From assembly GCA_018669005.1 (NCBI GenBank), contig JABJAL010000072.1, positions 231,877-295,876 of the forward strand: DNA of 64,000 nt, read 5' to 3'. A program made the translations under genes and the position numbers. Position 1 is the first letter of the stretch, and the number at the start of each line of letters is the position of its first letter. Below the pieces are notes generated by a model. It did not search any database. It was not told where the DNA came from and saw only the letters and a program-made list of their open reading frames with translations. Shown one piece after another: positions 1 to 49,492 of the stretch. The DNA is from Nitrospinaceae bacterium. Its GTDB lineage: Bacteria; UBA8248.

Positions 1-1480
1 CGGCGATCTGGGCCGAGGGGGTCATGAACAGATCGACGGCCATGTGGAAATCAAGCGCCATGAGGGCGTCGAAGACTTCTCTTGAATTGCTCCAGGTCAT
101 AATCGGGTTGCCGCCGATGCTCACCCAGGCCCGGACGGGGTAGGGTTTGCCGGTGAGGATGGCCTTGAGGACAGCCGGGTTGTTGGCGTAGCGCTTGGTT
201 AGGAGGCCTGCGCAGAGACGGAAGCGATCGGCACCGAGTTGTTTTTCGTAGGCCTCATCGGGCAGCGTTTCCCCAAATTTGTCGGTGAAGGTTCGGCAAC
301 CCTCATAGGAGGGCGCGGGGTGCATGTTTCCGCCGGGAATGTCGATGTTGCCGGTGATGACTTCGAGGATCATGCAGGCGCGGGCCGTCTGGTGGGCCGA
401 GACGCACATGTCGATACCCACGCCCCAGGCGAGGGCGGCGGGATTAGAGGTGGAGTAAAGGCGGGCCGCGCGGGCGATGTCTGCCGCGGGGACCCAGGTG
501 ATTGCCTCGGCCAGTCTGGGTTCGTATTTCGCGCATCGCTCTTTTAAAAGCTGCCAGACCGGTTTGCAATGTACATCGCCAGCGATGTATTCGCCCGAAA
601 TGGCTACGCTGGCGCCCGGTGTGCCCGCCGGGGCCTCGGCATTGGCGTGCAGATCCCAGATGAGATAATCGCCCGATGCGTTTTTGAGCGGTTTACTCGT
701 TTGGGTGTCAATGAGGTAGGAGGCGTTTGACCAGCGCTCGACGAAATTACGGTCATAGAGCTCCTCCTCGATGATGACGTGGATCATGCTCATGGCGAGG
801 GCGGCGTCTGTGCCCGGCCTGACGGGGAGCCAGACATTTGCCTTTCGAGCCAGCGCGGTTCGCCGGGGGTCGATGACGATAGTCTTGCCGCCCTTTTGGG
901 AGTGGGCGAGGGCCTTCCAGCCGAGGATGGAGTTGTGGTGGGTGATCTCGGGTTGATCGCCCCAGAGAAGGAGGCAGTCGGGGCTGCCCTCGTAGTCTGG
1001 CGAGTAGTAGTTGCCAAGGGTGGCGTTTGAGGCCGAGCGGCGGGGCATCATGCACTGGGCGCGTCCGGGCCCTGTTCGGTTGGTTGTGCCCAGGTTGAGC
1101 AGGAAAAGATCGACTATCCAGGCGACCTCGTCGGCCTTGGTGCCGTCGCCGCCGGTGATGGCGAGGGGGCCGTGGCGGTCAATGATATTGCCCAGCTTTG
1201 TCGCGCAGGTTTCAATGGCCTCGTCCCAGCCGATGCGCTCCCATTTGTTCTCTCCCCGGGCGCCAGCGCGCTTCATCGGATGGAGCAGGCGGTCTGGATG
1301 GTAGAGGACCTCGATCCCGGCCCGGCCTTTTACGCAGAGGTTTCCCTTGTTGTTAGGATGATCCGAGTCGCCCTCGACACGCACGGCGCGACCGTCCTCG
1401 ACATGGACCTCGATGCCGCAGCCCCCTTGGCAGAAAAAACAGCCTGACCGCACAACACCAGTGAAATTGTCCTGGCTCAT
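1..1480 (-). CDS. Molybdopterin (bis-MGD) oxidoreductase, DMSO-reductase superfamily; N-terminal ~493 aa, 3' end runs off the window
   Basis: Reverse-strand translation from ATG at 1478-1480 gives MSQDNFTGVVRSGCFFCQGGCGIEVHVEDGRAVRVEGDSDHPNNKGNLCVKG..., with the N-terminal Cys cluster of a 4Fe-4S Mo-bisPGD enzyme. The frame stays open to position 1 with no stop. It is absent from the ORF track because it is open-ended. Confidence 0.6.
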   Translation of the reverse strand, partial: MSQDNFTGVVRSGCFFCQGGCGIEVHVEDGRAVRVEGDSDHPNNKGNLCVKGRAGIEVLYHPDRLLHPMKRAGARGENKWERIGWDEAIETCATKLGNIIDRHGPLAITGGDGTKADEVAWIVDLFLLNLGTTNRTGPGRAQCMMPRRSASNATLGNYYSPDYEGSPDCLLLWGDQPEITHHNSILGWKALAHSQKGGKTIVIDPRRTALARKANVWLPVRPGTDAALAMSMIHVIIEEELYDRNFVERWSNASYLIDTQTSKPLKNASGDYLIWDLHANAEAPAGTPGASVAISGEYIAGDVHCKPVWQLLKERCAKYEPRLAEAITWVPAADIARAARLYSTSNPAALAWGVGIDMCVSAHQTARACMILEVITGNIDIPGGNMHPAPSYEGCRTFTDKFGETLPDEAYEKQLGADRFRLCAGLLTKRYANNPAVLKAILTGKPYPVRAWVSIGGNPIMTWSNSREVFDALMALDFHMAVDLFMTPSAQIA

Positions 1481-1724
1481 CGATTGTCCCCAGAAGGAGA
1501 AGGAAAGAGGGTCAACGTTTCCTTATCAATTAAGATAAAATAGTCTTTAATGTGGATTCTGTCAACATCTACAGGACATTTGTGGTTGAATAGCTCCAGT
1601 CGCCGGGGCGATGAAATGGCTCTATAATTAGGACACACGCTTTGTTGGTGGCTAGCTGTTCATCGAGGTGGCGGCTGATTATCTATCTGTTTTGTTTAGA
1701 GAAATTTCCTTTGAGAGAGGTGGA

Positions 1725-5069: not shown

Positions 5070-5738
5070 ATGCTCACACCCGAGCAGGTTAGTTTTGTTC
5101 TCCGGCTGATTGAAGCCGCCGTTCTGGGCGGCCTCATTGGCCTGGAGCGCGAGCGTAACAACCAGCCCGCCGGGCTGCGCACCCATATAATCCTTTGCCT
5201 CGGTTCCGCTCTGATAATGGAAGTTTCCATGCGCATTGGCGATGGAAGCCCGACGAGCGATCCCGGTCGCATTGCGGCCCAGGTTGTTAGCGGCATCGGT
5301 TTTCTGGGTGCAGGCGCGATTATGAGAATGGGCGCCTCTGTCCGGGGGCTGACGACGGCGGCGAGCATTTGGACGACGGCGGGAATTGGCCTTGCCGTCG
5401 GTGCTGGTTTCCATGTCGAGGCGGTTGCGGCGGTGGTGATCATGCTCATTTCGCTTGGCGTTCTTAAAAAAGTAGGTCGGCGAATTTCTGCCCGGCGAAG
5501 CTTTAAAGTAGTGGAAATTTATGTGAGCGGCGAGGATGAGGAATCGATCATTCCCGAGTTCGAGGACATTCTCTCCAAAGAGCGATGTGATGTGCGTGAA
5601 ATTGATGTGAAAAAAAATCTCGAAAGCGGCGAGATGAGAATACGGATGCAAATCGCCGCCCCCCGGGATTTTGAGCCGCCCCGCCTGGTGGAGGCCATCA
5701 CCCGCAGAGACGGCGTGCTCCGCGCCGAGGTGCGCTAG
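5070..5738 (+). CDS. mgtC: MgtC/SapB family membrane protein
   Basis: N-terminal MgtC signature GLERE...AGLRTH...GSALIM...RIAAQVVSGIGFLGAGAI, with a C-terminal ACT-like region. Confidence 0.7.
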   Translation: MLTPEQVSFVLRLIEAAVLGGLIGLERERNNQPAGLRTHIILCLGSALIMEVSMRIGDGSPTSDPGRIAAQVVSGIGFLGAGAIMRMGASVRGLTTAASIWTTAGIGLAVGAGFHVEAVAAVVIMLISLGVLKKVGRRISARRSFKVVEIYVSGEDEESIIPEFEDILSKERCDVREIDVKKNLESGEMRIRMQIAAPRDFEPPRLVEAITRRDGVLRAEVR

Positions 5739-5760: not shown

Positions 5761-6021
5761 TTATTTCAGAGAATCTTTGTAGCGCTGGTTCATGCTCTGG
5801 CCGATTCCGGCCATGACGGCGGTGGTGATATCGAACGTGGCGTCGAGCACATCTTCTGCGATTCCTGCTTTCCCGGCGGCCGCCAGGCGGTGGTCCACTC
5901 AAGGCTGGCAGTTGCGCACGATGGCGACGGCGATACCGATGAGGGACTTTTCGCGGTCGGTGAGTAGATCTGTTGCGTGGGCGTCGCGGTAATATTTTCG
6001 AAAATCTGCTCTCTCACTCAT
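5761..6021 (-). CDS. AhpD-like / carboxymuconolactone decarboxylase family protein with an in-frame TGA (candidate selenocysteine) at 5899-5901
   Basis: Manual reverse translation gives MSERADFRKYYRDAHATDLLTDREKSLIGIAVAIVRNCQP[TGA]VDHRLAAAGKAGIAEDVLDATFDITTAVMAGIGQSMNQRYKDSLK*. The TGA falls exactly at the second Cys of the AhpD C-x-x-C...H redox motif. A strong RBS (AAAGGAGATTGAT) precedes the ATG. Confidence 0.5.
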
Positions 6022-6139
6022 ATCAATCTCCTTTGCGGGCCGGGGCCTTTGGCCCAATGAAAAGCGTTAAACTTCCATATGATTTCGGTGGAATGATTAT
6101 AGGCAGTCGGGTCGGCATCTAAAAGCGGTCGGGGTAATC

Positions 6140-7057
6140 ATGCAAACACGAACGTTGGGCTGGGGTTTTCTCGCAATTTTATGCTGGGGCTTGCTTCCCA
6201 CAGTTGCGGGAGGCTCGCTGAGCCAGACACATCCGGCCTGGGTGCTCACCGGGGCTTTTGTCGCCTCCTCGCTGGTATTCGCCTATCTGCCTCCTTTTAT
6301 GGGGTTGCCGTCCGTTTCCGAGCCCGAGGCGTCCCGCGCCCGTTGGCGCGGACGGCTACTTGGTCTCTGGGGTCTTTTCTTTTTCCATGCTTTTTATTTT
6401 GAGGCAATTCAGCGCGCACCGATTGTCGAGGCGATTTTAATTAATTATCTGTGGCCGCTTTTTATTGTGCTCCTGGCCTGGGTAGTGCTCAGGGAGCCTT
6501 TTCGGCCGGCGATTGCAGTGGGCGCGCTGCTCGGCGCCGGTGGTGCTGTGCTGGTGGTAGGTGGGCAGGCGGCTGTGTTTGAGAGCCGTCATGCGCTGGG
6601 ATACGGATTTGCGCTCGCAAGTGCCACGGCATGGTCAAGCTATACAGTTCTTTTGAGTAAATGGGGCGGGGGTCGCGAGTTTCTCCTTCCCGCATCGATT
6701 TTAAGCGTCGGGCTCTCTATTGTCTGGCTGCTCGTTGCGGCCCCGCCTGGTGTCGCTTGGCCCGAGGTGCCCGGGCCCGCCGCATGGGGAGGTATTTTCT
6801 ATTTGGGCGCCATTGCGGTTGGTGTCGCAATACTCGCCTGGGAGAGAGCTGTATCCGGGGACGAGGTGGCCTTGCTCGGGACCTTGTCATATCTCGCGCC
6901 GTTCCTCGCGGCTTTTTTCCTTTGGCTGATTCTTGGAAAACCAATCGGCGAGTTCACCGCCGCCGGAATGGTATCTATCGTGGCAGGTGGTTTAGTTGCA
7001 GCCCGGTGGGGAGGCGGCGGTAAGAAGAAGCTGGTGTCAGGTGGCCGAGGCGATTGA
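6140..7057 (+). CDS. EamA/DMT family transporter (10 TM)
   Basis: Two EamA-like halves with hydrophobic repeats; typical DMT topology. Confidence 0.6.
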   Translation: MQTRTLGWGFLAILCWGLLPTVAGGSLSQTHPAWVLTGAFVASSLVFAYLPPFMGLPSVSEPEASRARWRGRLLGLWGLFFFHAFYFEAIQRAPIVEAILINYLWPLFIVLLAWVVLREPFRPAIAVGALLGAGGAVLVVGGQAAVFESRHALGYGFALASATAWSSYTVLLSKWGGGREFLLPASILSVGLSIVWLLVAAPPGVAWPEVPGPAAWGGIFYLGAIAVGVAILAWERAVSGDEVALLGTLSYLAPFLAAFFLWLILGKPIGEFTAAGMVSIVAGGLVAARWGGGGKKKLVSGGRGD

Positions 7058-31611: not shown

Positions 31612-32724
31612 TTAGTTGGTGTCGTTTTTCTCAATTAGATGGGATGTCGTGGCCTCTCTCACTCTCTCTTCCCCGTTACTATTCACGTTAGCATGGGTGT
31701 TAGTTAATCCGTTAGTCTGATGCATAACTGGCTCTTCGGAGACATTATCACCCATCTTCAAATTTGTTTCCCCTTTGATAGGAATCACATCGGAGTCTGG
31801 ACCTTGATTTTCAAAGTCGAGGTTCAGATTAAACTCTTCAGGTTTAGGCAAGTCTGTTAGGCTCTTGAACCCAAAGTGTTCAAGGAATTGTAGTGTGGTG
31901 CCATAAACGATTGGTTTGCCGACTACATCTCGGCGCCCGAGAATTCGGATCATTTTACGTTCCAAAAGGGTATTGATTGTGCCGCCACAATCCACCCTTC
32001 GAATCTCTTCAACTTCTAACTTCGTTATGGGTTGCTTGTATGCAATTATCGCTAGTGTTTCTAGCCCGGCATTTGATACGCGCCATTTTTTCTCTTGCTT
32101 AAAAAAGCGGCGTAACCAATGGGAGAACTCCATTCTGGTACACATGCGGAAGCCTTCTGCCACTTCGGTGATTTGGAGGGTGCGATTCTTGTATTCTTCC
32201 TTTAGCTCTGCGAGGAGTTTGCGTACGACTTTAGCATTTATATTTTCAACACCTCTGAAAACCATTGATATGTCACGGGGGCGTAATGTTTCATGTGTGG
32301 CGAAGAGTAAGGTTTCGATAATCCTCTTCGCCTCATCGAGATTTACGAGTAGGGGTGTATTTGGGGCACTGCCGGTACCGCCAAATTTTTCGACTTTACT
32401 TTCTGAGATATCAATTCTGAACGAAGAGGATTCAACGATTTCGTTGCTGTGTTTTTTTCTTTTTGTTGTGGTTGCGTTGATTTTAAACGTTGGAGATTCG
32501 ATGCTTCTGTCTATTTGTTCTTCTTTTAATTCGAGTGGGACCATCATTTCTTGATTTTCATCTTCTTCTTTGTCGAGTCCAAAGATGGTATTTTCTGATT
32601 CGCCGGAAATCTGGTGTTCTTCAAGTGTGCGGGCGGCTGTTTCTGAAGAAGAAGTGTTGTCACCTTCTAGCTGGAAAACGGATTCCTGTAGTTCTTTGCC
32701 TTTTTCGTATCTTAAATTATTCAT
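31612..32724 (-). CDS. scpB: Segregation and condensation protein B with ~130-aa acidic N-terminal extension
   Basis: Winged-helix ScpB core (IETLLFATHETL...GLETLAIIAYKQPITKLEVEEIRRVD...LLERKMI); lies downstream of scpA with a 4-nt overlap. Confidence 0.6.
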   Translation of the reverse strand: MNNLRYEKGKELQESVFQLEGDNTSSSETAARTLEEHQISGESENTIFGLDKEEDENQEMMVPLELKEEQIDRSIESPTFKINATTTKRKKHSNEIVESSSFRIDISESKVEKFGGTGSAPNTPLLVNLDEAKRIIETLLFATHETLRPRDISMVFRGVENINAKVVRKLLAELKEEYKNRTLQITEVAEGFRMCTRMEFSHWLRRFFKQEKKWRVSNAGLETLAIIAYKQPITKLEVEEIRRVDCGGTINTLLERKMIRILGRRDVVGKPIVYGTTLQFLEHFGFKSLTDLPKPEEFNLNLDFENQGPDSDVIPIKGETNLKMGDNVSEEPVMHQTNGLTNTHANVNSNGEERVREATTSHLIEKNDTN

Positions 32725-33715
32725 CGTCTTTTATCGCCTTGTGGACTCTAATTTCTCCATAAATTTCTGATTGGGTTGCAATAATTAGGCTTAGCCGTAT
32801 TAACTCGAGAATTGCCAGTAATGTAACAACAATAATGAGTCTCTTTGGGCCGTTACCTTTGAATAGATTTTCAAATTCAACTCCTTCAGGCCCGGAATTT
32901 TCAAGCATGTCTAGTACATGAGTCTGGCGGTCAGCCACTTCGAGTTCATCGACTTCAACGAGGTGAATGCCTTCCTCTCCAGCCTCTTCAATCATCTTTT
33001 GGATGGCGCTGATAAGATCAAAAACGGTCACTTCCAAAGGGGGAGGGTTTTCGAAGTCTTCTGGATTTAGAATGATTCCGTCGCCGTTGCCTCCTCTCGG
33101 GAAGATGGCTGACTGTACTTCCTCTGCGTCACGGAAAATTTGGCTTATACCCTTGAATTTTTGATACTCAAGCAATTGACGTTGGAGTTCTAGTCGAAGA
33201 GCTTCAGGGTCCTCTTCGCTTTCCTCCGCACCTCCTTGCTGGGGGAGTAATGTACGACTTTTGATATAAACGAGCCAGGAGGCCATTACGAGATAATCTG
33301 AGGCGATGTTAATGTTCAGGAGCTTCATCATTTCGATGTGTCTTAGGTACTGCTCGGTGATGAATGCGATAGGAATGTCGTATATATCTAATTTATGTTC
33401 GCGGATGAGATGTAACAGAAGTTCTAGTGGCCCTTCAAATACGTCTAGTTTGATGCTGAATTGATCGTTGACGTTTTTTTGTGTGTGAGGGGGCTGAAAT
33501 TCTTCTTTTAATTTATCAAGATTCTGAGGTTCCAAAGCGGTGACTTGGGGAGGTGAGACGATCTCCCAAGAATAGGGTGAACCCGCAGAGCGGTCGCTCC
33601 CTAGATTCAAATCTTTAAGATTCATTGTTTCGATAAGGTCGTTGTTAGGTTCTGAGGCAGATAAACTCTTCTCAGATTCTGACATGTTTGAGTGCTCTGG
33701 CTTAGCTGACGCCAT
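32717..33715 (-). CDS. scpA: Segregation and condensation protein A
   Basis: FEGPLELLLHLIREHKLDIYDIPIAFITEQYL, the kleisin ScpA N-terminal motif. Confidence 0.65.
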   Translation of the reverse strand: MASAKPEHSNMSESEKSLSASEPNNDLIETMNLKDLNLGSDRSAGSPYSWEIVSPPQVTALEPQNLDKLKEEFQPPHTQKNVNDQFSIKLDVFEGPLELLLHLIREHKLDIYDIPIAFITEQYLRHIEMMKLLNINIASDYLVMASWLVYIKSRTLLPQQGGAEESEEDPEALRLELQRQLLEYQKFKGISQIFRDAEEVQSAIFPRGGNGDGIILNPEDFENPPPLEVTVFDLISAIQKMIEEAGEEGIHLVEVDELEVADRQTHVLDMLENSGPEGVEFENLFKGNGPKRLIIVVTLLAILELIRLSLIIATQSEIYGEIRVHKAIKDDE

Positions 33716-33953
33716 GGGGAAGGTCCCCTGTAAGGCGAATGGTGGGCGGAACAGTGATTCTTAATTCATTTAACTATCAGGGTGTAGGTACCCTTCATTT
33801 CCCCCAATACAACTTGGTACCGTAAAAAATACCACAACGCTTGTCAATAGAAAGGATTGCAAGAGGGGCAAAAGTAGATTCGTTTAAAATGTTGGATGTG
33901 TGGTTATAGGGAGTGATAAATTTGATTGTAAAGGAGGGGTTGATTGGGGGGGG

Positions 33954-34322
33954 GTGAATGTGGCGAAAATTATTGAAAGGCATAAGAAAAAAGGCCGACT
34001 GTATGGTCGTGTTTTGGCGCATCAGATTAAGGATGGTGATAGGGTTTACATGAGGTGGTGTTTGCCTTATCTCCATGAAAAAGCCCAGGCCGTTCGGAGC
34101 CAGACAGAGTTATTTGACCTTTCCTCTCGAGGAGGGCTTGATTTTGTGTTTTTAAGTGGCGCTCAGATTGACACCCATAGTGATGTCAATCGGTTGTTTA
34201 TCGGTGATCCAGCGAATCTCGAAGTTCGTTTTCTTGGCGGGGCAGGTGGTTGCCGCTATTTTACCGACAGCGAAGCGGGTGGTTCTCTGTCGGCCTGTTC
34301 ACGATTAAAGAATTTTTCCTGA
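33954..34322 (+). CDS. Hypothetical protein (~122 aa)
   Basis: AGGAGGGG RBS upstream of GTG 33954; no family recognised; low-GC context. Confidence 0.3.
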   Translation: MNVAKIIERHKKKGRLYGRVLAHQIKDGDRVYMRWCLPYLHEKAQAVRSQTELFDLSSRGGLDFVFLSGAQIDTHSDVNRLFIGDPANLEVRFLGGAGGCRYFTDSEAGGSLSACSRLKNFS

Positions 34323-34338
34323 ATGTAGTGAATATATA

Positions 34339-34581
34339 ATGACTTCTGGTCGTGTGGATAGGGTGGTCATTCCAATTTACATCTTCAAAAATGGTAATGA
34401 TGAGCACCTCTGTCCAGAGTTGCTGCACGCAGATGTGACATCTAAAATGGTTCAGAATGCTACGGGATTTCATGTTGAAGTTTTAAATGTAATGCTCGAA
34501 ACGGTTGATCTATCATATGAAGAGCCTTTGGCTTTGGAATCGGTAGATCATTGCGGAGTCCATTTCGGTGAATTTTTTTAG
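34339..34581 (+). CDS. Hypothetical protein (80 aa)
   Basis: ORF directly downstream of the previous gene; no family. Confidence 0.2.
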   Translation: MTSGRVDRVVIPIYIFKNGNDEHLCPELLHADVTSKMVQNATGFHVEVLNVMLETVDLSYEEPLALESVDHCGVHFGEFF

Positions 34582-34604
34582 TCTTATTCCCTCTGGATTA
34601 GTGA

Positions 34605-35537
34605 ATGGTAGAATTTCAGTTTGATGTAGTTGGAGTCGGTCTCAACTCGGTAGATCTCTTGTGCCAAGTTAAGCATTTTCCAGTATTTAACACAAAAGGT
34701 TCTCTGGATGATATAAGCCGTCAGGGTGGCGGACAGGTGGCGACGGCTTTGGCCGCTTTGTCTCGTCTTGAAATGAAAACAGCATTTATTGGTGTTGTAG
34801 GTGATGATGAGAATGGTGTTTTTTCGATATCCTCTCTTAAAGCGGATGGTGTTAATGTCGAGGGCGTGGTTGTGCGGCCTGATTTCGCAACTCAATTTGC
34901 AATCATCATTGTTCAATCCGACGGTGACGATGAAGAAAGAGGAGGACGAACGATTCTATGGCATCGTGAGGTTATTCTTCGGCCTGAGGATGTCAGAGAG
35001 GATATCGTGAAGTCAGCTCGGATGATTCACGTTGACGGCCACTCTCTTGAGGCAGAAATAAAAGTTGCTAAGTGGGCCCAGGAAGAGGGGATTCTTGTTT
35101 CATTTGACGCAGAGCGTGTTGTGCCGGGAGTTGAAAAATTGATTTCGCTAACGGATTATCTGGTTGCGTCCGAGGGTTTTCCGTCGGAATTCTCTGGGAG
35201 TGCAAATGTGAAAGAGGGGCTGAAGAAAATTTGTTCTCTGGGGCCACGTGTAGCTGCCATGACAAAAGGTCCCCGGGGTGTCGTCGCTTTTGATGGAGAG
35301 CGATTTTACAATTCACCTGGATTTCCAATTAATGTGGTTGATACCACTGGGGCTGGTGATGTGTTTCATGCTGGGTTTATCTATGGGGTTTTACAAGGAT
35401 TTGAACTGTCTCGAACTCTGCGGTTTGCTAATGCTCTTGCGGCTCTGAGTTGCAGAGAACTAGGTGGTCGTGCTGGTCTTTGTTGTCTTGAGGAAGTGGA
35501 TAGCTTTATTGCGAAATTTCCTGATTTGGAGGCTTAA
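34605..35537 (+). CDS. PfkB-family carbohydrate kinase (ribokinase-like)
   Basis: N-terminal GG motif (VVGVGLNSVDL), C-terminal DTTGAGD anion-hole motif. Confidence 0.65.
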   Translation: MVEFQFDVVGVGLNSVDLLCQVKHFPVFNTKGSLDDISRQGGGQVATALAALSRLEMKTAFIGVVGDDENGVFSISSLKADGVNVEGVVVRPDFATQFAIIIVQSDGDDEERGGRTILWHREVILRPEDVREDIVKSARMIHVDGHSLEAEIKVAKWAQEEGILVSFDAERVVPGVEKLISLTDYLVASEGFPSEFSGSANVKEGLKKICSLGPRVAAMTKGPRGVVAFDGERFYNSPGFPINVVDTTGAGDVFHAGFIYGVLQGFELSRTLRFANALAALSCRELGGRAGLCCLEEVDSFIAKFPDLEA

Positions 35538-36427
35538 TGAGTAGGTTTCTTAATGATATAGAGATGGTCTGGCTTCGCAAGATTTTTTTCGTATTTTTAC
35601 TTACATTGCTGGGTGCCGGAGCAGGTGCCTGTAATTCGGGTTTGCCAGAAAATTCAGTTTCTGGTGCCATTCTATTGTCTCCTGGGCTTCCTGCTAAGGC
35701 CGCTAGAACGGGGACGCTTTTTATTGTGCTTGCTCCGGTTGGCGGCGGTCCTCCGCTTGCTGTTCAGCGACTGGTCCGAGTGAAGTTTCCTTATAAATAC
35801 ATCCTCACGAAAGACGATCTGATGTTTAAGGGCGGGCCCTTCACTGGACAGGTCAAAGTACGCGCCCGGCTCGATTCGGATGGAGTTGTCGGGCGGCTAG
35901 TAAGGGGTGACTACGAAGGAAGAAATGAAACACCTGTTTCGATTGGTGCTAGAGGAGTTGACGTTGTTATCAATAAGGCTGGAACTGCACCCCCTCCTCG
36001 CAAGGTGTCAAAAAAGACGGTGCCCATGCGACCGATTGCTCCGATGTCGTCCGCTGGCAAACAATCTTCCGCTTCTAGTTTGGGCGATGGTCCCACGATA
36101 AGTGGGACCATCAAAATTGCGCCTTCCCTAGTTCAAAAGGCCGAGGGAATTCCCGTTCTGTTCATCATTGCCCGCACGGAGCGACCCGGCCCGCCGCTTG
36201 CGGTGGTGAAGGTGGCACGTCCGCGCTTTCCGTTCCCCTTCACCATCTCCGGGCGCAACGTCATGATGCAGGGTCTACGCTTTGAGGGCAGGGTACGCAT
36301 CACGGCCCGCTTAGATGCCGATGGCAACGCCGGTGCGCCCAAGCCAGGCGACATGGAAGGGAAGACTCCCTCCTTGGTCACGGTGGGCGACAGCAAGGTT
36401 GTCATCACGGTGGACAAGGCCTACTAG
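35537..36427 (+). CDS. Hypothetical lipoprotein with an internal tandem domain duplication
   Basis: Signal peptide plus lipobox (LLGAGAGAC); two ~90-aa homologous halves (GTLFIVLAPVGGGPPLAV...VRARLDSDG vs GIPVLFIIARTERPGPPLAV...ITARLDADG). Confidence 0.5.
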   Translation: MSRFLNDIEMVWLRKIFFVFLLTLLGAGAGACNSGLPENSVSGAILLSPGLPAKAARTGTLFIVLAPVGGGPPLAVQRLVRVKFPYKYILTKDDLMFKGGPFTGQVKVRARLDSDGVVGRLVRGDYEGRNETPVSIGARGVDVVINKAGTAPPPRKVSKKTVPMRPIAPMSSAGKQSSASSLGDGPTISGTIKIAPSLVQKAEGIPVLFIIARTERPGPPLAVVKVARPRFPFPFTISGRNVMMQGLRFEGRVRITARLDADGNAGAPKPGDMEGKTPSLVTVGDSKVVITVDKAY

Positions 36428-36494
36428 GCGAATATCTCGATCACAGCAACATGCCGCTCATAGCCTAGGTGTGAGCTTGACGGCCCTAATATAT

Positions 36495-36506
36495 GTGTAT
36501 ATACAT
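36495..36506. promoter_or_regulatory. Palindromic candidate operator GTGTATATACAT (core TGTATATACA) upstream of marR
   Basis: Perfect 10-bp palindrome in the AT-rich intergenic region. Related copies at 37327-37334 (TGTATACA) and 37426-37437 (GTGTATATACAC, a perfect 12-bp palindrome) lie downstream of marR and upstream of the next gene. Confidence 0.4.
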
Positions 36507-36767
36507 ATATGGCTCTTGCTAAAACCCAGTTTATTTTACCCAGTACCCAGTAGATGGGAATTCCACAAGGCCCGCTAATGCGAATCGCCTCGGGGCGTGT
36601 CGCCGGGGAAGCCCAAAGGGGCCCCTCAAAGGGACGCAAGAGGAGCCGCCCAGAAATTTTACCGGGAGTTTAATAGGTCGGAGTGTGCATTGTTACGGGC
36701 CCATTTGTTCATGAAAGAGTGCACAGGCCGATAGGCACGCCCCCTTTTAAAAAAAAAGGATCCCCCG

Positions 36768-37292
36768 ATGGCAGACACGCTCAACGCCCGCGAAATCAGG
36801 CTCCGTGATGCCGCCGCAGCAGGTTGCTATTCCAATGCCCTTCGCCGCGCCGCCCGCGCCGCTGGAAGTATGTACGACGATGCCCTGCGCCCCGCCGGGC
36901 TCCGCGGCACCCAGTTTACCCTCCTCGCCGCGCTCTCGAAAATGGGTGAGCCCACCTTGGGTGAGCCCATCCTGGGTGATACCCCCATGGGCGGTGGCAC
37001 CGCTAGTGGTACCCCAATGGGGCCGCTCGGCGAAGCCCTCGCCCTCGACCGCACCACCCTCACGCGAAACCTCGCTCCCCTTGAGCGCCGGGGCCTCATC
37101 GCCTCCGCACCCGGCCCCGACCGGCGCACCCGCATTGTCAGGCTCACCCCAGAGGGCGCCCAAGCCCTCGCCCAGGCGCTTCCCCTCTGGGAGGGGGCCC
37201 AATTAAAACTAGCCGCCGCCCTCGGGTTTGAAACCGCTGGCCGTATTCGCGCAGATCTGTCGAAAACACTCGCCGCTGCCCGTGCGGGCTGA
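36768..37292 (+). CDS. MarR family transcriptional regulator containing an in-frame pentapeptide tandem-repeat insert
   Basis: MarR wHTH (LRGTQFTLLAALSKMG ... LGEALALDRTTLTRNLAPLERRGLI...DRRTRIVRLTPEG). It is interrupted by GEPTL-GEPIL-GDTPM-GGGTA-SGTPM, encoded by 15-nt tandem repeats at 36945-37023. Confidence 0.6.
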   Translation: MADTLNAREIRLRDAAAAGCYSNALRRAARAAGSMYDDALRPAGLRGTQFTLLAALSKMGEPTLGEPILGDTPMGGGTASGTPMGPLGEALALDRTTLTRNLAPLERRGLIASAPGPDRRTRIVRLTPEGAQALAQALPLWEGAQLKLAAALGFETAGRIRADLSKTLAAARAG

Positions 37293-37425
37293 ACATAAGC
37301 CGCATTTTTTTTAATCCATAAGGTGTGTATACATATAAATAAAAGGAGATGAACATGAATAACTTTCAAATTCTCATCCCAGCGCAGGAGGGTTGACCCT
37401 AATCAGTATTTTTTTAACCTGTTAA

Positions 37426-37437
37426 GTGTATATACAC
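37426..37437. promoter_or_regulatory. Perfect 12-bp palindrome GTGTATATACAC, candidate MarR operator before the membrane-protein gene
   Basis: Same motif as upstream of marR; located ~85 bp before the ATG at 37523. Confidence 0.4.
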
Positions 37438-37522
37438 TGAAGCGAAAACTCTTCCCCGCCGCCTAATTTTTACGGTGGCGCGGTTTTCACAGGCAATTCA
37501 AGACAAAAGGAGATTTTAAAAG

Positions 37523-38002
37523 ATGGACACCATGACAATTTTCGGCCTGCAATTCGCTTTAAGCCTCCTCGCCTGGGGCGCGGCGGCCCGGTGGCTCGCA
37601 GTCTCTCATCTTGAAAAATTATCCGCTCATGAGGCGCTCTCGTGGCTCATTCTGCCGCACACTTTCCGGCACTTAGGATTAGTCTTCCTCGTCCCCGGCG
37701 TCGTGGCGCGGCCGCTCCCCGAAGCATTTGCCAATCCCGCCGCCTATGGCGATCTCCTGGCGGGCCTCCTCGCGCTCGCCGCCTTTGCCGCCCTCCGCAG
37801 CGGCAAATCCTTCGCGCGCCCCCTCGCCTGGCTTTTCAACATCGTCGGGACAATGGACCTGCTCTATGCCGTCACCATTGGCACCCTCAACAACGCCGCC
37901 CCCGCCATGGGCGCCACATGGTACATCCCCACTTTTGTCGTGCCCTTGCTGCTCATCACGCATGGAATGATTTTTGTCAGGTTGGTGAGGGGGGAGGGGT
38001 GA
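37523..38002 (+). CDS. Hypothetical 4-5 TM membrane protein
   Basis: AAAGGAGA RBS; hydrophobic profile; no family assigned. Confidence 0.45.
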   Translation: MDTMTIFGLQFALSLLAWGAAARWLAVSHLEKLSAHEALSWLILPHTFRHLGLVFLVPGVVARPLPEAFANPAAYGDLLAGLLALAAFAALRSGKSFARPLAWLFNIVGTMDLLYAVTIGTLNNAAPAMGATWYIPTFVVPLLLITHGMIFVRLVRGEG

Positions 38003-38193
38003 TATGGTCGACTAATGGACTGGATAATTTCGTGCAAATCGTGAATACTTTCTATGTATTCACTCACTAAATTTTCCGCCCGATATGGCCGATATGACAT
38101 CAAAAGAGTGATTTGCGCTGAAGATGGATTTTCGCTATAATTTCGTCTATCAGTATTTCCTTTAATGTCGAGTAGTGTCAGGAGAGTAAATTC

Positions 38194-39441
38194 GTGGGGC
38201 GTCCAATCGGAATTGATCTTTTTGCTGGGGCAGGAGGCTTAAGCCTAGGTTTCGAGCAGGCGGGGTTTAAAATTGCCGCTGCTGTCGATATTGACCCAAT
38301 TCATTGTGCAGCACATGAGTACAATTTCCCCAATTGTAAAACTATTTGCAAAGATGTCGCTGAATTGACGGGAGAAGAAATTCGAAAAATTTCTGGTGTC
38401 AAAGAAAAAAAAATAGATGTAGTTTTCGGAGGAGCGCCTTGTCAGGGTTTTTCGCTGATTGGTAAAAGAGCATTAAACGACCCGCGTAATCGTCTCGTTA
38501 ATCATTTTGTTCGATTGGTACTTGAGCTAGCCCCTTCTTATTTTCTATTTGAGAATGTCAAAGGATTAACAATCGGCAAGCATCGCCAATTTCTCGAAGA
38601 AATAATTTCAACGTTCGAAAAAAATGGTTATTCGGTTGAGGGTAATTATCGTGTGTTAAATGCATCTAATTACGGAGTGCCGCAGAAGAGAGAACGGTTA
38701 TTTCTATTCGGGTGTAGAAAAAATCTTAAAATTCCTATATATCCAAAAAAATTGAGCGAAATTTCAATCTCCGATGCGTTGGCAGATTTGCCAGAAGTTG
38801 AAAAATTTACAGAACTGCTTGATAGGGATTGGGTGGAGACAATTCTTGGAAGTCCATCAAAATATGCTGAAAAATTACGAGAAGCTGAATTTGCTTCTTG
38901 TAATTATGGATACAGTCGAAAATATAATCCCAATCTACTAACATCAAGCGCAAGAACAACTCATACGCCACTTTCTCGAAAACGATTTGCCGAAACGCCA
39001 CACGGAAAAACAGAACCAGTTAGTAGATTTTTCAAATTAGATCCGCAGGGTGTTTGTAATACCTTGCGGGCTGGGACGGCAAGTGATCGGGGAGCTTTCA
39101 CTTCTCCAAGACCTATCCATCCCTTTACTCCTCGATGTATTACAGTTCGCGAGGCAGCCCGAATACACAGCTACCCTGATTGGTTTCGATTTCATGTCAC
39201 CAAGTGGCATGGGTTTAGGCAGATTGGAAATTCGGTCCCACCTCTTTTGGCCCAAGCGGTCGCTATGGAAATTTTGAGGGCTCTTGAAAAAAAACCTTCA
39301 AAGCCCAAAAAAATTTTAAGGTTAGGCGATTCATTGTTGCTTAATTTGTCAATGTCGCAAGCGGCTTATTATTATGGCGTGTCTCCAAATGTGATTCCAA
39401 AACGTACCAGATCGGCCCGTCCAAAGGTGATTTGTGCCTAA
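38194..39441 (+). CDS. DNA (cytosine-5)-methyltransferase
   Basis: Motif I (IDLFAGAGGLSLGF), motif IV PC (GGAPCQGFS), motif VI ENV (ENVKGL), motif VIII and a C-terminal target-recognition domain. GTG start with AGGAGAG RBS; GC ~40%. Confidence 0.8.
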   Translation: MGRPIGIDLFAGAGGLSLGFEQAGFKIAAAVDIDPIHCAAHEYNFPNCKTICKDVAELTGEEIRKISGVKEKKIDVVFGGAPCQGFSLIGKRALNDPRNRLVNHFVRLVLELAPSYFLFENVKGLTIGKHRQFLEEIISTFEKNGYSVEGNYRVLNASNYGVPQKRERLFLFGCRKNLKIPIYPKKLSEISISDALADLPEVEKFTELLDRDWVETILGSPSKYAEKLREAEFASCNYGYSRKYNPNLLTSSARTTHTPLSRKRFAETPHGKTEPVSRFFKLDPQGVCNTLRAGTASDRGAFTSPRPIHPFTPRCITVREAARIHSYPDWFRFHVTKWHGFRQIGNSVPPLLAQAVAMEILRALEKKPSKPKKILRLGDSLLLNLSMSQAAYYYGVSPNVIPKRTRSARPKVICA

Positions 39442-40234
39442 AAAGCGAACTGGTCTTTATGATGTGATAATAGAGCAAATTTTCAAGAATCATTTCACGG
39501 CGGGTATTTCTTCATTCGATTTTGATAGGGACGAAATTGAAAAAGTTGCAGAGAAAATTGAAGCAAACCTTCCAAAAAATGTAGGCGATGTGGTTTATTC
39601 CTTTCGTTACCGTAGGGCACTTCCTAAATCTATTCAAGATACTGCATCGAATGATAATGAATGGGTCATCGAAGGAGCAGATAGAGCCAAATATACATTT
39701 AAATTGGTGAAAATTAATCGAATTGTACCCAACCAAAATTTAATTGCTATAAAAATTCCAGATGCAACTCCAGAAATAATTTCATCTTATGCGCTGTCAG
39801 ATGAGCAAGCCCTGTTGGCAAAGGTCAGATACAATAGATTAGTAGATATATTTTTGGGGCTAACAACATATTCTTTGCAGAATCATCTGAGAACTACTGT
39901 TAAAAGAGTTCAAATCGAGATAGACGAAATTTATGTCGGCATAGATCGAGAAGGATGCCACTACATAATACCTATTCAAGCGAAGGGAGGAAAAGATCAA
40001 CTTTCAGTGGTTCAAACAAAACAGGATATATCTTGTTGTACCGATAAGTTTCCAAATTTAATTTGCCGAGCACTATCAAGTCAATTTATGACAGAAAATC
40101 TTATTGCTATTTTCGAATTGACTGTGCAGGATGATCAGATAAGAATTGTTGATGAAAAACATTATCGATTAGTCCCTTCGGAGCAAATATCTTCAGAAGA
40201 TATGAAAGCATACAGGTCACACACTTCAGGGTAA
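39434..40234 (+). CDS. Hypothetical protein, candidate type II restriction endonuclease partner of the C5-MTase
   Basis: Overlaps the MTase by 8 nt, shares its low GC, and has a possible PD-(D/E)xK-like element (VGIDREG...IPIQAKGG). No family otherwise recognised. Confidence 0.35.
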   Translation: MPKKRTGLYDVIIEQIFKNHFTAGISSFDFDRDEIEKVAEKIEANLPKNVGDVVYSFRYRRALPKSIQDTASNDNEWVIEGADRAKYTFKLVKINRIVPNQNLIAIKIPDATPEIISSYALSDEQALLAKVRYNRLVDIFLGLTTYSLQNHLRTTVKRVQIEIDEIYVGIDREGCHYIIPIQAKGGKDQLSVVQTKQDISCCTDKFPNLICRALSSQFMTENLIAIFELTVQDDQIRIVDEKHYRLVPSEQISSEDMKAYRSHTSG

Positions 40235-40260
40235 ATATTTTTTCAACCAAGACCCCCATC

Positions 40261-40330
40261 TCACTTCCCCCATATGACCAAGAACACCCTAACAACCGAA
40301 ATCATCTCCCCCCAGACAACGCGGGGCGAC
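40261..40330 (-). pseudogene. 3' remnant of a fourth EamA/DMT transporter paralog
   Basis: Positions 40261-40330 are ~75% identical to the 3' end of the DMT gene at 41315 (ttacttcccccatacgacgagaaacacc...cagacgacgcggg), but the frame is broken. Lies at the right edge of the low-GC R-M island. Confidence 0.4.
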
Positions 40331-41314: not shown

Positions 41315-42193
41315 TTACTTCCCCCATACGACGAGAAACACCCCGGCAACAGATAGCAGCCCGCCCCAGACGACGCGGGAGGTGATCTGTTCGAGTTGTC
41401 GGTAGAAAAGCCAGGAGGTGAAAATCATCAAGAGGACCGAGATGCGGGTGACGGGCACCACCTGCACGAGATCCCCGTGCTGGACGGCAGTCCAGAAGAA
41501 CAGGGCGGCCAGGGCGTTGAACACCGCCCCCACCACAATAAAGAGAACGGCCTGCCGCCCAAAGGATTTGGGTATTCCCTCGCCGGTAAAGGGCATGATG
41601 GCGATCATCGTCACGACCGAAAAAGTGTTGGAAATGCTCATGCCGAGCGTGGCCGAATCGATCCAGCCATATCCGTATTTGCGCAGCAGGTGGGAGAGCC
41701 CTTGTAGAAATGCCGCCACCACCGGGATGAGGTAGTAAGACATGGGGATTTTCTTGAGCTCAATTTCTCCTTTGTTGACCAGGAGAATTGAGCCAATCAT
41801 GATCGCCGCCGTTCCCGCGCCGATGGCCATGTTCAGATTCTCCCCCAGAAGGGCGATGGCCAGCCCCGTTGACCAGATGAGGCTTGTTTGAAGAATGATC
41901 GCCGTCCGGGCGAGGCCAAGCTCTTTCATTGATAAAAATTGAAGGTAGCGCCCGCCCACACCGTTTATGATTCCGATGCCCACGAACCAGGCAACCCCCT
42001 GAAGGGGCCAATGCTCCACCTGGCCTGAATAGAAATAATAACCCCAGATGAGGACCAGCGAGATTGAGCCCGAGATCAGAGCTGTTGTGTTTGCGCCGAA
42101 ATGGAGCAGTACGCTTCGGTAGAGTGTTCGCGCTATCGAGATGTTGACCGCGGATAAAAGTGCCAACAGGCTGGGGTGTATTGAATCGAGCAA
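41315..42193 (-). CDS. EamA/DMT superfamily transporter, tandem paralog 1 (292 aa)
   Basis: 10-TM DMT profile; ~70% identical to the next two genes. Confidence 0.6.
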   Translation of the reverse strand: MLDSIHPSLLALLSAVNISIARTLYRSVLLHFGANTTALISGSISLVLIWGYYFYSGQVEHWPLQGVAWFVGIGIINGVGGRYLQFLSMKELGLARTAIILQTSLIWSTGLAIALLGENLNMAIGAGTAAIMIGSILLVNKGEIELKKIPMSYYLIPVVAAFLQGLSHLLRKYGYGWIDSATLGMSISNTFSVVTMIAIMPFTGEGIPKSFGRQAVLFIVVGAVFNALAALFFWTAVQHGDLVQVVPVTRISVLLMIFTSWLFYRQLEQITSRVVWGGLLSVAGVFLVVWGK

Positions 42194-42291
42194 ATCGCCA
42201 CCAGAGAGGATAGAAACTAAAAAACTATTATTGCATGGAACGAAAAATAGAGCGATGAGGGGAGTCTGAATTTCTTAATTGGCGGGCGGCT

Positions 42292-43170: not shown

Positions 43171-43269
43171 ATCGCCACCAGAGAGGAGAGAAACTAAAGA
43201 TCTATTATTGCATGTAACGAAAAACAGATCGATGAAGACTGTCAGGGTTTCTAGAAATGGCGGGCGGTT

Positions 43270-49278: not shown

Positions 49279-49492
49279 GTTTATCAGAGGGCGCCGTCGA
49301 CGACGCCCTCTGCCTGCCGAGTACGAGGCCTCCACTGCGCTGGCTGAGTAGGGGTTTGCGCTATTTGGAATTTGTCATCTCATCCGCCTTGGTTCGTGTT
49401 TGTGGCGTAATAGTAAATCTAGGTGAATATTAAACTTTGATGGGTACCGTTGTTAATCTCGGCGCAATGGATTGAAGAAAGGAGATTTCTTC

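What the first reader, a model, noticed from the sequence alone, without database searches (positions are those of the whole stretch)
5761..6021. AhpD-like (CMD family) ORF with in-frame TGA exactly at the redox Cys position: candidate selenoprotein
I translated this minus-strand ORF by hand. It reads MSERADFRKYYRDAHATDLLTDREKSLIGIAVAIVRNCQP-[TGA]-VDHRLAAAGKAGIAEDVL...KDSLK*, with a strong RBS (AAAGGAGATTGATATG). The TGA at 5899-5901 falls at the second position of the AhpD-type C-x-x-C...H catalytic motif (here C-Q-P-U-V-D-H), the classic hallmark of a Cys-to-Sec substitution. AhpD-like selenoproteins have been reported in bacterial selenoproteome surveys. A GC-rich hairpin follows 12-27 nt after the UGA (CCUGGC-GGCC-GCCGGG) with a G-starting apical loop, compatible with a bacterial SECIS. 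The ORF track split the gene at the TGA and missed it.
Basis: partly seen in the sequence, partly recalled or inferred. Interest (0 to 1): 0.8.

Follow-up and report, generated by a model that had tools for sequence, protein, structure and literature searches.

The report
Unannotated AhpD-like selenoprotein gene
This is very likely a real small redox-protein gene whose internal "stop" codon (TGA) encodes selenocysteine; public annotation cuts it in half, but this kind of selenoprotein has been known since 2005, in a bacterial lineage already known to be rich in them.

Summary
A minus-strand ORF (6021..5761, 86 codons) has one in-frame TGA (5901..5899) inside a C-Q-P-U motif, a good RBS, and a 6-bp/4-nt-loop hairpin starting 12 nt after the TGA. 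With U read as C, the protein passes the Pfam CMD/AhpD threshold. The U aligns with the second Cys of the CxxC motif in solved CMD proteins.

The TGA is not a lesion. In 123 related gene copies (27 genome species of Nitrospinota, Tectomicrobia and others, plus about 90 metagenome contigs) the codon is TGA in 119, TGC in 3 and CGA in 1. Protein conservation runs across it. The hairpin forms in 93 of 95 distinct sequences, with compensatory changes at synonymous sites and suppressed synonymous variation. TGA is otherwise an ordinary stop in this window.

No selA, selB, selD or tRNA-Sec lies in the window. However, a syntenic relative (FO_M_Nitrospinota_01) is listed with 54 selenoprotein genes in BSepDB.

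Verdict: a genuine CxxU CMD/AhpD-like selenoprotein, a new (unmodelled, mis-annotated) member of a known kind. Interest is modest.

The parts
5761..6021 (-). Complete selenoprotein gene: 86 sense codons (Sec at codon 41) plus a TAA stop. It encodes a small CMD/AhpD-like protein.
   Evidence: sequence and translation. Pfam CMD, 34.8 bits against a cut-off of 23, residues 9-72, so the domain spans the TGA; orthologs at 56-94% identity are conserved on both sides of the TGA.
6028..6033 (-). Shine-Dalgarno AAGGAG, 6 nt upstream of the ATG (6021..6019).
   Evidence: Read directly.
6096..6123 (-). Sigma-70-like promoter candidate (TTTAGA-16-TATAAT, 10 of 12 matches) in the 118-nt divergent intergenic region shared with the EamA gene.
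   Evidence: This is a consensus match only: 1 site found against 0.6 expected in shuffles, so the evidence is weak.
5908..5910 (-). TGC codon for Cys38, the first residue of the C-x-x-U redox motif.
   Evidence: Invariant in the 12-sequence alignment and in all 103 distinct TGA-containing DNA sequences.
5899..5901 (-). In-frame TGA at codon 41, the predicted selenocysteine codon.
   Evidence: TGA in 119 of 123 homologous copies. Aligned with the second Cys of CxxC in solved CMD proteins and with TGC in rare Cys orthologs.
5888..5898 (-). 11-nt spacer (GUGGACCACCG) between the UGA and the hairpin. Its synonymous positions vary freely among orthologs.
   Evidence: third-position entropy is 1.36-1.88 bits at codons +1 to +3; 37 spacer variants, with the spacer always 11 nt because all sequences are in codon register with no indels.
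5872..5887 (-). SECIS-like hairpin: 6-bp stem CCUGGC/GCCGGG with apical tetraloop GGCC (GGAC, GGAU or AGAU in relatives).
   Evidence: 100% of 156 cells paired, against 26-51% when the 3' partner is slid by 1-3 columns; 2 pairs show compensatory changes. RNAalifold predicts the same helix; all six pairs form in 93 of 95 distinct sequences, and pair 18-27 shows 5 standard pair types; synonymous variation is suppressed at codons +4, +6, +7, +9 and +10.
5761..5763 (-). TAA, the true stop codon. It lies 22 nt from the end of the convergent MgtC gene (5070-5738, + strand).

Best explanation
The locus is an intact, monocistronic gene for an 86-residue selenoprotein of the CMD/AhpD-like superfamily.

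During translation the UGA at codon 41 is read as selenocysteine. A 16-nt hairpin (6-bp stem, G-containing tetraloop) begins 12 nt after the UGA, leaving an 11-nt spacer. The hairpin would recruit SelB-GTP-Sec-tRNA(Sec) to the approaching ribosome, so that Sec outcompetes release factor 2.

The product carries a Cys38-Gln-Pro-Sec41 centre at the position of the CxxC motif of AhpD/CMD proteins. Sec replaces the second Cys. It most likely cycles between a selenol/thiol and a selenenylsulfide form, acting as a small thiol-selenol oxidoreductase, either an AhpD-type hydroperoxidase or a reductase of a partner protein.

What is shown: the gene structure, the conserved TGA, the Sec/Cys pairing, selection on the hairpin at the RNA level, and CMD family membership.

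What is inferred: that Sec rather than another residue is inserted, that the genome carries selABCD, the redox chemistry, and the still unknown physiological partner.
For: Family and alignment: Pfam CMD above its gathering score across the TGA. U is aligned with the second Cys of CxxC in 3BEY (profile E = 4.9e-8), 7Y4R and 1VKE/1P8C.

Conservation of the TGA: all 27 species-level genome loci and 6 metagenome contigs have it. The genome scan could only have hit through a C-terminal peptide pattern, because its 'W' pattern encodes TGG, so the set is not biased toward TGA. A metagenome scan seeded with Cys forms still returned 80 TGA against 2 TGC, plus four more TGA loci from a third clade. The total is 119 TGA, 3 TGC and 1 CGA.

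Protein conservation on both sides: 34 invariant columns in the 12-sequence alignment, 19 before and 14 after the codon (the 34th is the Sec column itself, which was entered or gene-called as W).

Hairpin: 100% paired, with compensatory C-G to U-A and G-C to A-U/U-A/C-G changes at third-codon (synonymous) positions of Arg, Leu, Ala and Gly/Arg codons. Third-position entropy is 0.28-0.62 bits in non-covarying hairpin codons, against 1.3-1.9 bits in the spacer and flanks.

No independent downstream ORF: codon +1 is a non-start codon (GTC, GTA, GTT, ACG or ATA) in 29 of 95 sequences.

Standard genetic code: 14 of 53 window genes end in TGA, including Pfam-complete FeoB and NuoF, and TGG is used for Trp.

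Lineage: conserved synteny with Nitrospinota MAGs, including FO_M_Nitrospinota_01, which has 54 selenoprotein genes in a database restricted to species with the Sec pathway (PMC13326102).

The kind is known: CxxU AhpD-like and CMD-domain selenoprotein families are established (PMC1088965; PMC2398784; PMC9312934).
Against: No selA, selB, selD or tRNA-Sec gene was found in the window or in any fetched flank, and the rest of this genome could not be examined.

The hairpin is short. Single-sequence folding of the region is no more stable than shuffled controls (MFE -19.3 kcal/mol against a shuffle mean of -23.3, z = +1.34). No Rfam family matched. bSECISearch itself could not be run.

The hairpin is also present in the rare Cys (TGC) and Arg (CGA) variants. 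Its presence alone therefore does not prove current SECIS function, although it is consistent with recent Sec-to-Cys conversion.

The canonical CMD His at +4 is an Arg, so the chemistry may differ from AhpD.

The AlphaFold model of a Cys ortholog was not compact (pTM 0.44) and gave no PDB fold match.

There is no direct protein-level evidence.
Confidence: 0.9

Rival explanations
1. Pseudogene or sequencing error: a CMD/AhpD gene whose TGC/TGT Cys codon was recently hit by a nonsense mutation or a base-call error.
For: A single T-G-A among Cys-type motifs could arise from TGC/TGT by one substitution. Gene callers treat the locus as broken.
Against: The same TGA is present in 119 of 123 copies from independent assemblies, phyla and habitats. 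Sequence identity falls to 56%, with purifying selection on both halves. Cys forms are the rare state (3 copies). The identical sequence recurs in 22 contigs from different samples.
Confidence: 0.01
2. Genuine termination. The TGA is a real stop, and either only the 40-residue N-terminal peptide is made, or two separate small proteins are made with the second restarting at the GTG after the TGA. On this reading the hairpin would be an attenuator or a pause element.
For: GTG follows the TGA in the window, so a 45-aa ORF can be called. Public annotations do call it. No Sec machinery was seen in the window.
Against: The Pfam CMD domain spans the TGA (residues 9-72), and neither half is a domain on its own. 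Codon +1 is not a start codon in 29 of 95 distinct sequences. No RBS is possible inside the conserved NCQP coding sequence without constraining it. Cys orthologs are continuous single proteins. The redox motif would be cut between its two catalytic residues.
Confidence: 0.03
3. UGA recoding that does not involve selenocysteine: lineage-wide or context-specific read-through as Trp, Gly or Cys (as in codes 4 and 25, or near-cognate suppression). Some gene callers assumed this and wrote W at the position.
For: Eleven database proteins carry W at the position. The same holds for further hits in the second search.
Against: Where the DNA of those W-carrying proteins could be fetched (P0001, P0007 and P0035), the codon is TGA, so the W is an artefact of short contigs called under an alternative code. 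In this window TGA terminates 14 of 53 genes, including full-length FeoB and NuoF, and Trp is encoded by TGG. The position is the nucleophilic Cys of a redox motif, where only Cys or Sec makes chemical sense. Natural alternates are TGC. A hairpin under selection sits at what I recall as SECIS spacing. The lineage is documented as selenoprotein-rich.
Confidence: 0.04

Closest known systems
'CMD domain-containing protein' / 'AhpD-like 2' selenoprotein family (pfam02627, CxxU), from the Sargasso Sea and GOS selenoproteome surveys (PMC1088965, PMC2398784)
   Same: Same Pfam domain, same CxxU motif with Sec in the second position, a bacterial SECIS-type hairpin directly after the UGA, and detection mainly in marine and soil metagenomes.
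   Different: I could not compare sequences with the published members. This subfamily has an invariant N/L-C-x-P-U-V-x-x-R-L-A-D-A signature. It is almost exclusively Sec: 119 TGA against 3 TGC copies. In GOS, by contrast, Cys homologs outnumber Sec forms about 3 to 1 (207 against 70).
GSU3128 family (seleno)protein, NCBIfam NF041047. This may be the 'distant AhpD homolog, COG0599/YurZ, CxxU' of Geobacter sulfurreducens listed in PMC9312934; that equivalence is my assumption.
   Same: Similar size (84-position profile against 86 aa), AhpD-type domain, and a CxxU selenoprotein. JGI labels one ortholog (P0033) as YurZ.
   Different: The score is 26.9 bits against a curated cut-off of 110, so this is not a member of that equivalog. 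No NCBIfam model reaches its cut-off, which explains why NCBI's pipeline leaves the gene split.
C-terminal AhpD domains of the methyltransferase-fusion selenoproteins MduS (NF045649) and ArsM/AhpD 'UU' (NF041537), and the arsenosugar-associated peroxidase-like protein TIGR04169
   Same: These are the best NCBIfam similarities. They cover the whole small protein and align with the C-terminal AhpD domain of the fusions. In the soil sister clade a class-I SAM methyltransferase lies upstream on the same strand in 52 loci.
   Different: All scores are far below the cut-offs (32-39 bits against 120-510). The window gene is free-standing, with no methyltransferase neighbour. Its neighbours are EamA, MgtC, PCC and CrcB.
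Mycobacterium tuberculosis AhpD and the small hexameric CMD proteins with solved structures (3BEY O27018, 7Y4R, TM1620 1VKE/1P8C)
   Same: Same domain. The Cys-x-x-Cys motif is aligned with C38-x-x-U41. An upstream Glu in the L-T/S-x-R-E-K motif is conserved. From my own recollection of the AhpD literature, not checked here, the second Cys of the motif (Cys133 in MtAhpD) is the attacking nucleophile, which fits Sec sitting at that position.
   Different: These proteins use Cys, not Sec. Their conserved His at +4 after the second Cys is replaced here by an invariant Arg45. The protein is shorter than AhpD. The fold could not be confirmed by the model.
E. coli fdhF bacterial SECIS (minimal 17-nt upper stem-loop placed 11 nt after the UGA and bound by SelB).
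   Same: A hairpin immediately downstream inside the coding sequence, an 11-nt spacer, and a small apical loop with G in the first two positions (GGNC or AGAU). [quoted passage not shown]
   Different: Only a 6-bp stem and a tetraloop, no bulged U, and no detectable lower stem. Binding to SelB is untested.

Membership tests
Bacterial selenoprotein gene (Sec-UGA recoding) | An in-frame UGA conserved among orthologs, with protein conservation continuing downstream. | tested here: met
   TGA in 119 of 123 copies. 34 invariant columns in the 12-sequence alignment, 19 before and 14 after the codon.
Bacterial selenoprotein gene (Sec-UGA recoding) | Homologs that carry Cys at the position aligned with the UGA. 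| tested here: met
   TGC verified in L035, L037 and L089. Cys forms P0036-P0039, P0041 and P0042. CxxC in PDB homologs aligns with CxxU.
Bacterial selenoprotein gene (Sec-UGA recoding) | A SECIS stem-loop immediately downstream of the UGA, with a small G-containing apical loop. | tested here: met
   A 6-bp stem starts 12 nt after the UGA, with loop GGCC, GGAC, GGAU or AGAU. It is 100% paired, shows compensatory changes, and is recovered by RNAalifold. Synonymous variation is suppressed. Caveats: the formal bSECISearch model was not run, and single-sequence stability is unexceptional.
Bacterial selenoprotein gene (Sec-UGA recoding) | selA, selB, selD and tRNA-Sec (selC) present in the same genome. 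| not testable with these tools
Indirect support: the syntenic relative FO_M_Nitrospinota_01 is in BSepDB (species with the Sec pathway) with 54 selenoprotein genes.
Bacterial selenoprotein gene (Sec-UGA recoding) | Physical incorporation of selenium at the UGA position. | not testable with these tools
   Needs 75Se labelling or mass spectrometry.
CMD / AhpD-like superfamily (Pfam PF02627) | Score above the Pfam gathering threshold. | tested here: met
   34.8 bits against 23, E = 1.7e-8, residues 9-72. Precomputed PF02627 hits exist on orthologs.
CMD / AhpD-like superfamily (Pfam PF02627) | A CxxC redox motif at the conserved position. | tested here: met
   C38-Q-P-U41 aligns without gaps to C-D-A-C (3BEY), C-D-G-C (7Y4R) and C-D-D-C (1VKE).
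CMD / AhpD-like superfamily (Pfam PF02627) | A conserved His four residues after the second Cys (the proton-relay His of AhpD-type enzymes). | tested here: not met
The aligned residue is Arg45. His44 (+3) varies as H/R/Q.
CMD / AhpD-like superfamily (Pfam PF02627) | The all-helical AhpD fold. | tested here: inconclusive
   The AlphaFold2 model of Cys ortholog P0039 is helical (pLDDT 83) but not compact (pTM 0.44). Foldseek against the PDB found nothing. These proteins are probably obligate oligomers: 3BEY, 7Y4R and 1VKE each have 6 chains.
GSU3128 family (seleno)protein, NF041047; also TIGR04169, MduS NF045649 and ArsM_AhpD_UU NF041537 | Score at or above the NCBIfam curated cut-off. | tested here: not met
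   26.9 against 110; 34.3 against 120; 31.6 against 380; 24.4 against 510. The Cys ortholog gives similar results.
'AhpD-like 2 / CMD domain-containing' selenoprotein family of the metagenomic surveys | pfam02627 domain plus a CxxU motif. | tested here: met
   The family definition comes from PMC2398784 Table 2 and PMC1088965 Table 3. A direct sequence comparison with published members was not possible.

The most novel reading that the evidence does not exclude
The gene may represent a distinct, essentially Sec-obligate subfamily of mini-AhpD proteins, with the signature C-x-P-U-V-x-x-R-L-A-D-A. In it the canonical proton-relay His has been replaced by an invariant Arg, plausibly because a selenolate needs no general base.

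The ancestral role could be as the detachable redox partner of SAM-dependent methyltransferases. Three observations point that way. A methyltransferase sits upstream in 52 soil-clade loci. A PEMT/ICMT-type methyltransferase starts 10 nt downstream of the stop in another Nitrospinota clade. The closest curated relatives are methyltransferase-AhpD fusion selenoproteins such as ArsM/AhpD and MduS.

If true, the protein would take part in metalloid or thiol methylation chemistry rather than in peroxide detoxification.
Probability: 0.15. Interest if true: 0.45.

Novelty: new member of a known kind. Interest (0 to 1): 0.3.

Why it matters
Practically, this is a clean example of a real gene that standard pipelines destroy. 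Every public call on this sequence and its relatives is a 40-49-aa 'hypothetical protein' half or a code-4 artefact with Trp at the active site. No NCBIfam model reaches its cut-off. Roughly 100 distinct sequences with a fixed 11-nt spacer and a covarying 6-bp/tetraloop hairpin would make a good seed for a family model and a useful minimal-SECIS test case.

Biologically, it adds one more redox selenoprotein to Nitrospinota/UBA8248 and to Tectomicrobia. The former is already reported as among the most selenoprotein-rich bacterial lineages. It does not change any concept: CxxU AhpD/CMD selenoproteins have been known since 2004-2005.

Tried and rejected
(1) Rfam gathering scan of the whole window and ARAGORN: no SECIS family, no tRNA-Sec and no tRNA at all in the window. 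ARAGORN on 28 related loci found only ordinary tRNAs.

(2) Looked for selA, selB and selD among the ten largest plausible ORFs. They were FeoB, MFS transporters, NuoF, an amidohydrolase, RluD-like, AI-2E, IDH/IPMDH and ScpA. No Sec machinery was found, which says little for a 64-kb slice of a genome.

(3) Single-sequence RNA folding of 5910..5840 gave z = +1.34, no better than shuffles. I rejected this as a criterion and used covariation and synonymous-site conservation instead.

(5) Scanned the window for further selenoprotein genes, first with a naive two-flank ORF scan (191 mostly spurious candidates in this GC-rich DNA) and then with a codon-usage score. No candidate other than 5899-5901 was found.

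(6) Looked for a conserved operon partner in the Nitrospinota clade. Synteny is strong (CrcB, EamA, MgtC, PCC, amidohydrolase, MqnC/CofH-like radical SAM). However, the immediate neighbours are divergent or convergent, so no functional partner can be inferred for the window gene.

(7) Considered that the hairpin is a by-product of the R-L-A-D-A-G/R peptide. Rejected, because the covarying and frozen positions are third-codon synonymous sites.
Full report
**1. The observation**

The minus strand of 6021..5761 reads ATG, then 40 codons, TGA, 45 codons, TAA. The product is MSERADFRKYYRDAHATDLLTDREKSLIGIAVAIVRNCQP-U-VDHRLAAAGKAGIAEDVLDATFDITTAVMAGIGQSMNQRYKDSLK.

- AAGGAG lies 6 nt before the ATG.
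- The TGA is at 5901..5899.
- Mechanical ORF finding splits the gene at the TGA.
- Public gene calls on the identical sequence (GCA_018647785.1 and other assemblies) keep only a 45-aa or a 40-aa half.

To test whether this is more than chance, I trained a codon-usage coding score on the other ORFs treated as window genes. This TGA is the only one in all six frames of the 64-kb window with stop-free, coding-like sequence on both sides.

**2. Family**

- With U replaced by C, the protein scores 34.8 bits on Pfam CMD (PF02627, threshold 23) over residues 9-72. The domain therefore spans the TGA.
- Against solved structures, the closest match is the 96-aa CMD protein 3BEY, at E = 4.5e-5 with the single sequence and 4.9e-8 with a family profile.
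- The alignment has no gaps through the motif. N-C-Q-P-U-V-D-H-R pairs with R-C-D-A-C-T-R-R-H. The same register holds for 7Y4R (C-D-G-C-I-G-V-H) and for TM1620, 1VKE/1P8C (C-D-D-C-I-R-Y-H).
- Sec therefore stands in for the second Cys of CxxC.
- The canonical His at +4 is an Arg here.
- NCBIfam gives only sub-threshold similarity. The hits include several AhpD-type selenoprotein models: TIGR04169, MduS, the GSU3128 family and ArsM_AhpD_UU. None comes near its cut-off.

**3. Is the TGA a lesion?**

It is not.

- A protein search found 32 relatives. Eleven were full length with 'W' at the position. The other 21 were halves that end in ...NCQP (one in ...NCQL) or begin at the next residue.
- Where the DNA of those 'W' proteins could be fetched (P0001, P0007 and P0035), the codon is TGA, so short contigs had been called under an alternative code.
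- A scan of one genome per species returned 27 loci, from Nitrospinota, 'Nitrospinaceae', Candidatus Tectomicrobia/Entotheonella and some MAGs with other labels. Identity ranged from 56 to 94%. All 27 have TGA at codon 41.
- That scan could not have been biased toward TGA. Its motif pattern encoded TGG, so hits came through a C-terminal peptide pattern.
- A profile search then revealed a sister clade (R-L-C-D-P-x-V-[DE]-R-R-L-A-D-A-R-K-A-G-M-T-E-E-E-L-D) that contains true Cys forms. TGC was verified in L035, L037 and L089.
- I seeded a metagenome scan with those Cys forms. It still returned 80 TGA copies against 2 TGC. A third clade (N-C-E-P-U-T-E-R-R) is also TGA.
- Overall there are 119 TGA, 3 TGC and 1 CGA copies, and 95 distinct TGA-bearing 51-mers.
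- Protein conservation is equally strong on both sides of the codon.

This is the classical Sec/Cys signature, with Sec as the overwhelmingly dominant and probably ancestral state.

**4. The hairpin**

The analysis used 26 distinct sequences from the Nitrospinota/Entotheonella set.

- The six pairs (columns 15-20 with 25-30, counted from the U of UGA) are formed in 100% of cells. Sliding the 3' partner by 1-3 columns drops this to 26-51%.
- Two pairs carry double compensatory changes: C-G to U-A, and G-C to A-U, U-A or U-G.
- RNAalifold predicts exactly this helix and nothing else in the 51 nt.
- Across all 95 distinct sequences, all six pairs form in 93. The central variable pair shows five standard pair types: UA 68, GC 18, AU 3, UG 3 and CG 2.

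The covarying positions are third-codon positions of Arg (CGN), Leu (CUN), Ala (GCN) and Gly/Arg codons. The R-L-A-D-A-G/R peptide therefore cannot explain them.

Synonymous variation is frozen in the other hairpin codons, at 0.28-0.62 bits. It runs at 1.3-1.9 bits in the 11-nt spacer and in flanking four-fold codons.

The loop is GGAC, GGAU, GGCC or AGAU, so it always has G within its first two positions. [quoted passage not shown] By my own recollection, not checked here, the 11-nt spacer matches the E. coli fdhF minimal SECIS.

Caveats:
- The single-sequence fold is not more stable than shuffles.
- Rfam has no match.
- The rare Cys and Arg variants still carry the hairpin. I read this as recent conversion.

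**5. Alternative readings**

- **Genome-wide UGA reassignment** is excluded. TGA terminates 14 of 53 window genes, including full-length FeoB and NuoF, and Trp uses TGG.
- **Two independent mini-ORFs** are unlikely. The domain spans the TGA. Cys orthologs are single proteins. Codon +1 is a non-start codon in 29 of 95 sequences.
- **Pseudogene or sequencing error** is excluded by the conservation described in section 3.

**6. Sec machinery and organism**

- Nothing in the window or in the fetched flanks encodes selA, selB, selD or tRNA-Sec. The tools do not allow scanning the rest of the genome, so this defining feature remains untested for this genome.
- The window is collinear with Nitrospinota MAG contigs. 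The shared order is CrcB, EamA, the gene, MgtC, PCC, an amidohydrolase and an MqnC/CofH-like radical SAM gene, with neighbour proteins at 64-92% identity.
- One of those MAGs is FO_M_Nitrospinota_01 (locus L010, ortholog 87% identical). The BSepDB paper lists that MAG (GTDB phylum UBA8248) with 54 selenoprotein genes. It is fifth among all bacteria, in a database built only from species with the Sec pathway (PMC13326102).
- Two other UBA8248 MAGs are also in that top ten.

The lineage-level prior for Sec decoding is therefore very high.

**7. Mechanism (inferred)**

SelB with Sec-tRNA(Sec) is recruited by the hairpin 11 nt downstream, and Sec is inserted at codon 41. The 86-aa protein is probably an oligomer, like the six-chain entries of its PDB relatives. 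It would use a Cys38/Sec41 selenenylsulfide couple as a thiol-selenol oxidoreductase.

That is where Sec would give the greatest kinetic gain. Replacement of the relay His by an invariant Arg fits a residue that is already ionised at neutral pH.

The gene is flanked by a divergent EamA gene and a convergent MgtC gene. It is therefore monocistronic, and its partner is unknown. A sigma-70-like promoter match lies at 6123..6096, but this is weak evidence.

**8. Comparison with what is known, and novelty**

CxxU selenoproteins of the AhpD/CMD type are long established:
- 'AhpD-like protein' (COG2128) and 'CMD domain-containing protein' in the Sargasso Sea survey (PMC1088965);
- 'AhpD-like 1' and 'AhpD-like 2' (pfam02627) among the most abundant families in GOS (PMC2398784);
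- a 'distant AhpD homolog' (COG0599/YurZ) in Geobacter (PMC9312934);
- an 'AhpD-like protein family' category in BSepDB.

The present gene fits the pfam02627/CxxU definition. It fails the curated cut-offs of every specific NCBIfam model, and it is mis-annotated everywhere I looked. I therefore rate it a new member of a known kind. If BSepDB already lists the FO_M_Nitrospinota_01 ortholog, it is simply already known.

The points of mild interest are:
- the near-exclusive use of Sec;
- the His-to-Arg change;
- the very compact, strongly covarying SECIS;
- a recurrent association of relatives with SAM methyltransferases. A methyltransferase lies upstream in 52 soil-clade loci, a PEMT/ICMT-type gene lies 10 nt downstream in another Nitrospinota clade, and the closest curated models are methyltransferase-AhpD fusion selenoproteins.

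That last link is not present in the window itself.

**9. Verdict**

The finding is a correct rescue of a mis-annotated gene rather than a discovery of a new kind. Interest: 0.3.

Noticed in passing
window 41315-44148 (-) and 6140-7057 (+): Three tandem 292-aa EamA/DMT-family transporter paralogs sit in a row. A fourth EamA gene lies divergent from the selenoprotein gene.
   Followed up: partly
window ~32000-40300: A low-GC island (GC 0.45-0.49, against 0.52-0.58 elsewhere). It contains a C-5 cytosine DNA methylase (38194-39441, +) that overlaps by 8 nt a 266-aa ORF with no Pfam hit (39434-40234, +). This is probably a horizontally acquired restriction-modification pair.
   Followed up: partly
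window 50327-53845 (-): A 1172-aa protein with DUF7948, SBBP beta-propeller repeats and a HYR domain. A small c-type cytochrome ORF with a CAGCH motif lies nearby at about 49457-49852 (+).
   Followed up: no
window 2-1522 (-): A molybdopterin oxidoreductase (Fe4S4 plus Molybdopterin domains) that runs off the window's start. It has no in-frame TGA over the 507 codons seen. By eye I saw a Cys (RAQCMMP) about where I recall formate-dehydrogenase-type enzymes carrying Sec, but no alignment was made.
   Followed up: partly
L034 3001-3276 (Candidatus Entotheonella palauensis FKIO01000456.1): The ortholog has CGA (Arg) instead of TGA at the Sec position, with the hairpin intact. It is annotated as a normal CMD protein. 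This is either a base error or a single-step inactivating or escape mutation.
   Followed up: partly
L044, L047, L051, L061, L062, L066 (soil metagenome contigs): Each of these contigs carries two copies of the selenoprotein gene. The second copy in L051 diverges right after the hairpin and looks truncated.
   Followed up: no
L038-L093 (52 soil-clade loci), about 1.25 kb to 0.26 kb upstream of the Sec codon; L001 1196-1747: In the soil clade a class-I SAM methyltransferase precedes the mini-AhpD selenoprotein gene on the same strand; the representative (L093) has a His-rich N-terminus. In the L001 clade a PEMT/ICMT-type methyltransferase gene starts 10 nt after its stop. This echoes the known methyltransferase-AhpD fusion selenoproteins.
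   Followed up: partly
window 5761-5898 / 5899-6021; L117-L119: The identical sequence occurs in 22 public contigs of up to 0.2-1 Mb. In the three places shown, only a 45-aa or a 40-aa half of the gene is called. Short contigs of relatives were called under an alternative genetic code, which put Trp at the active site.
   Followed up: yes
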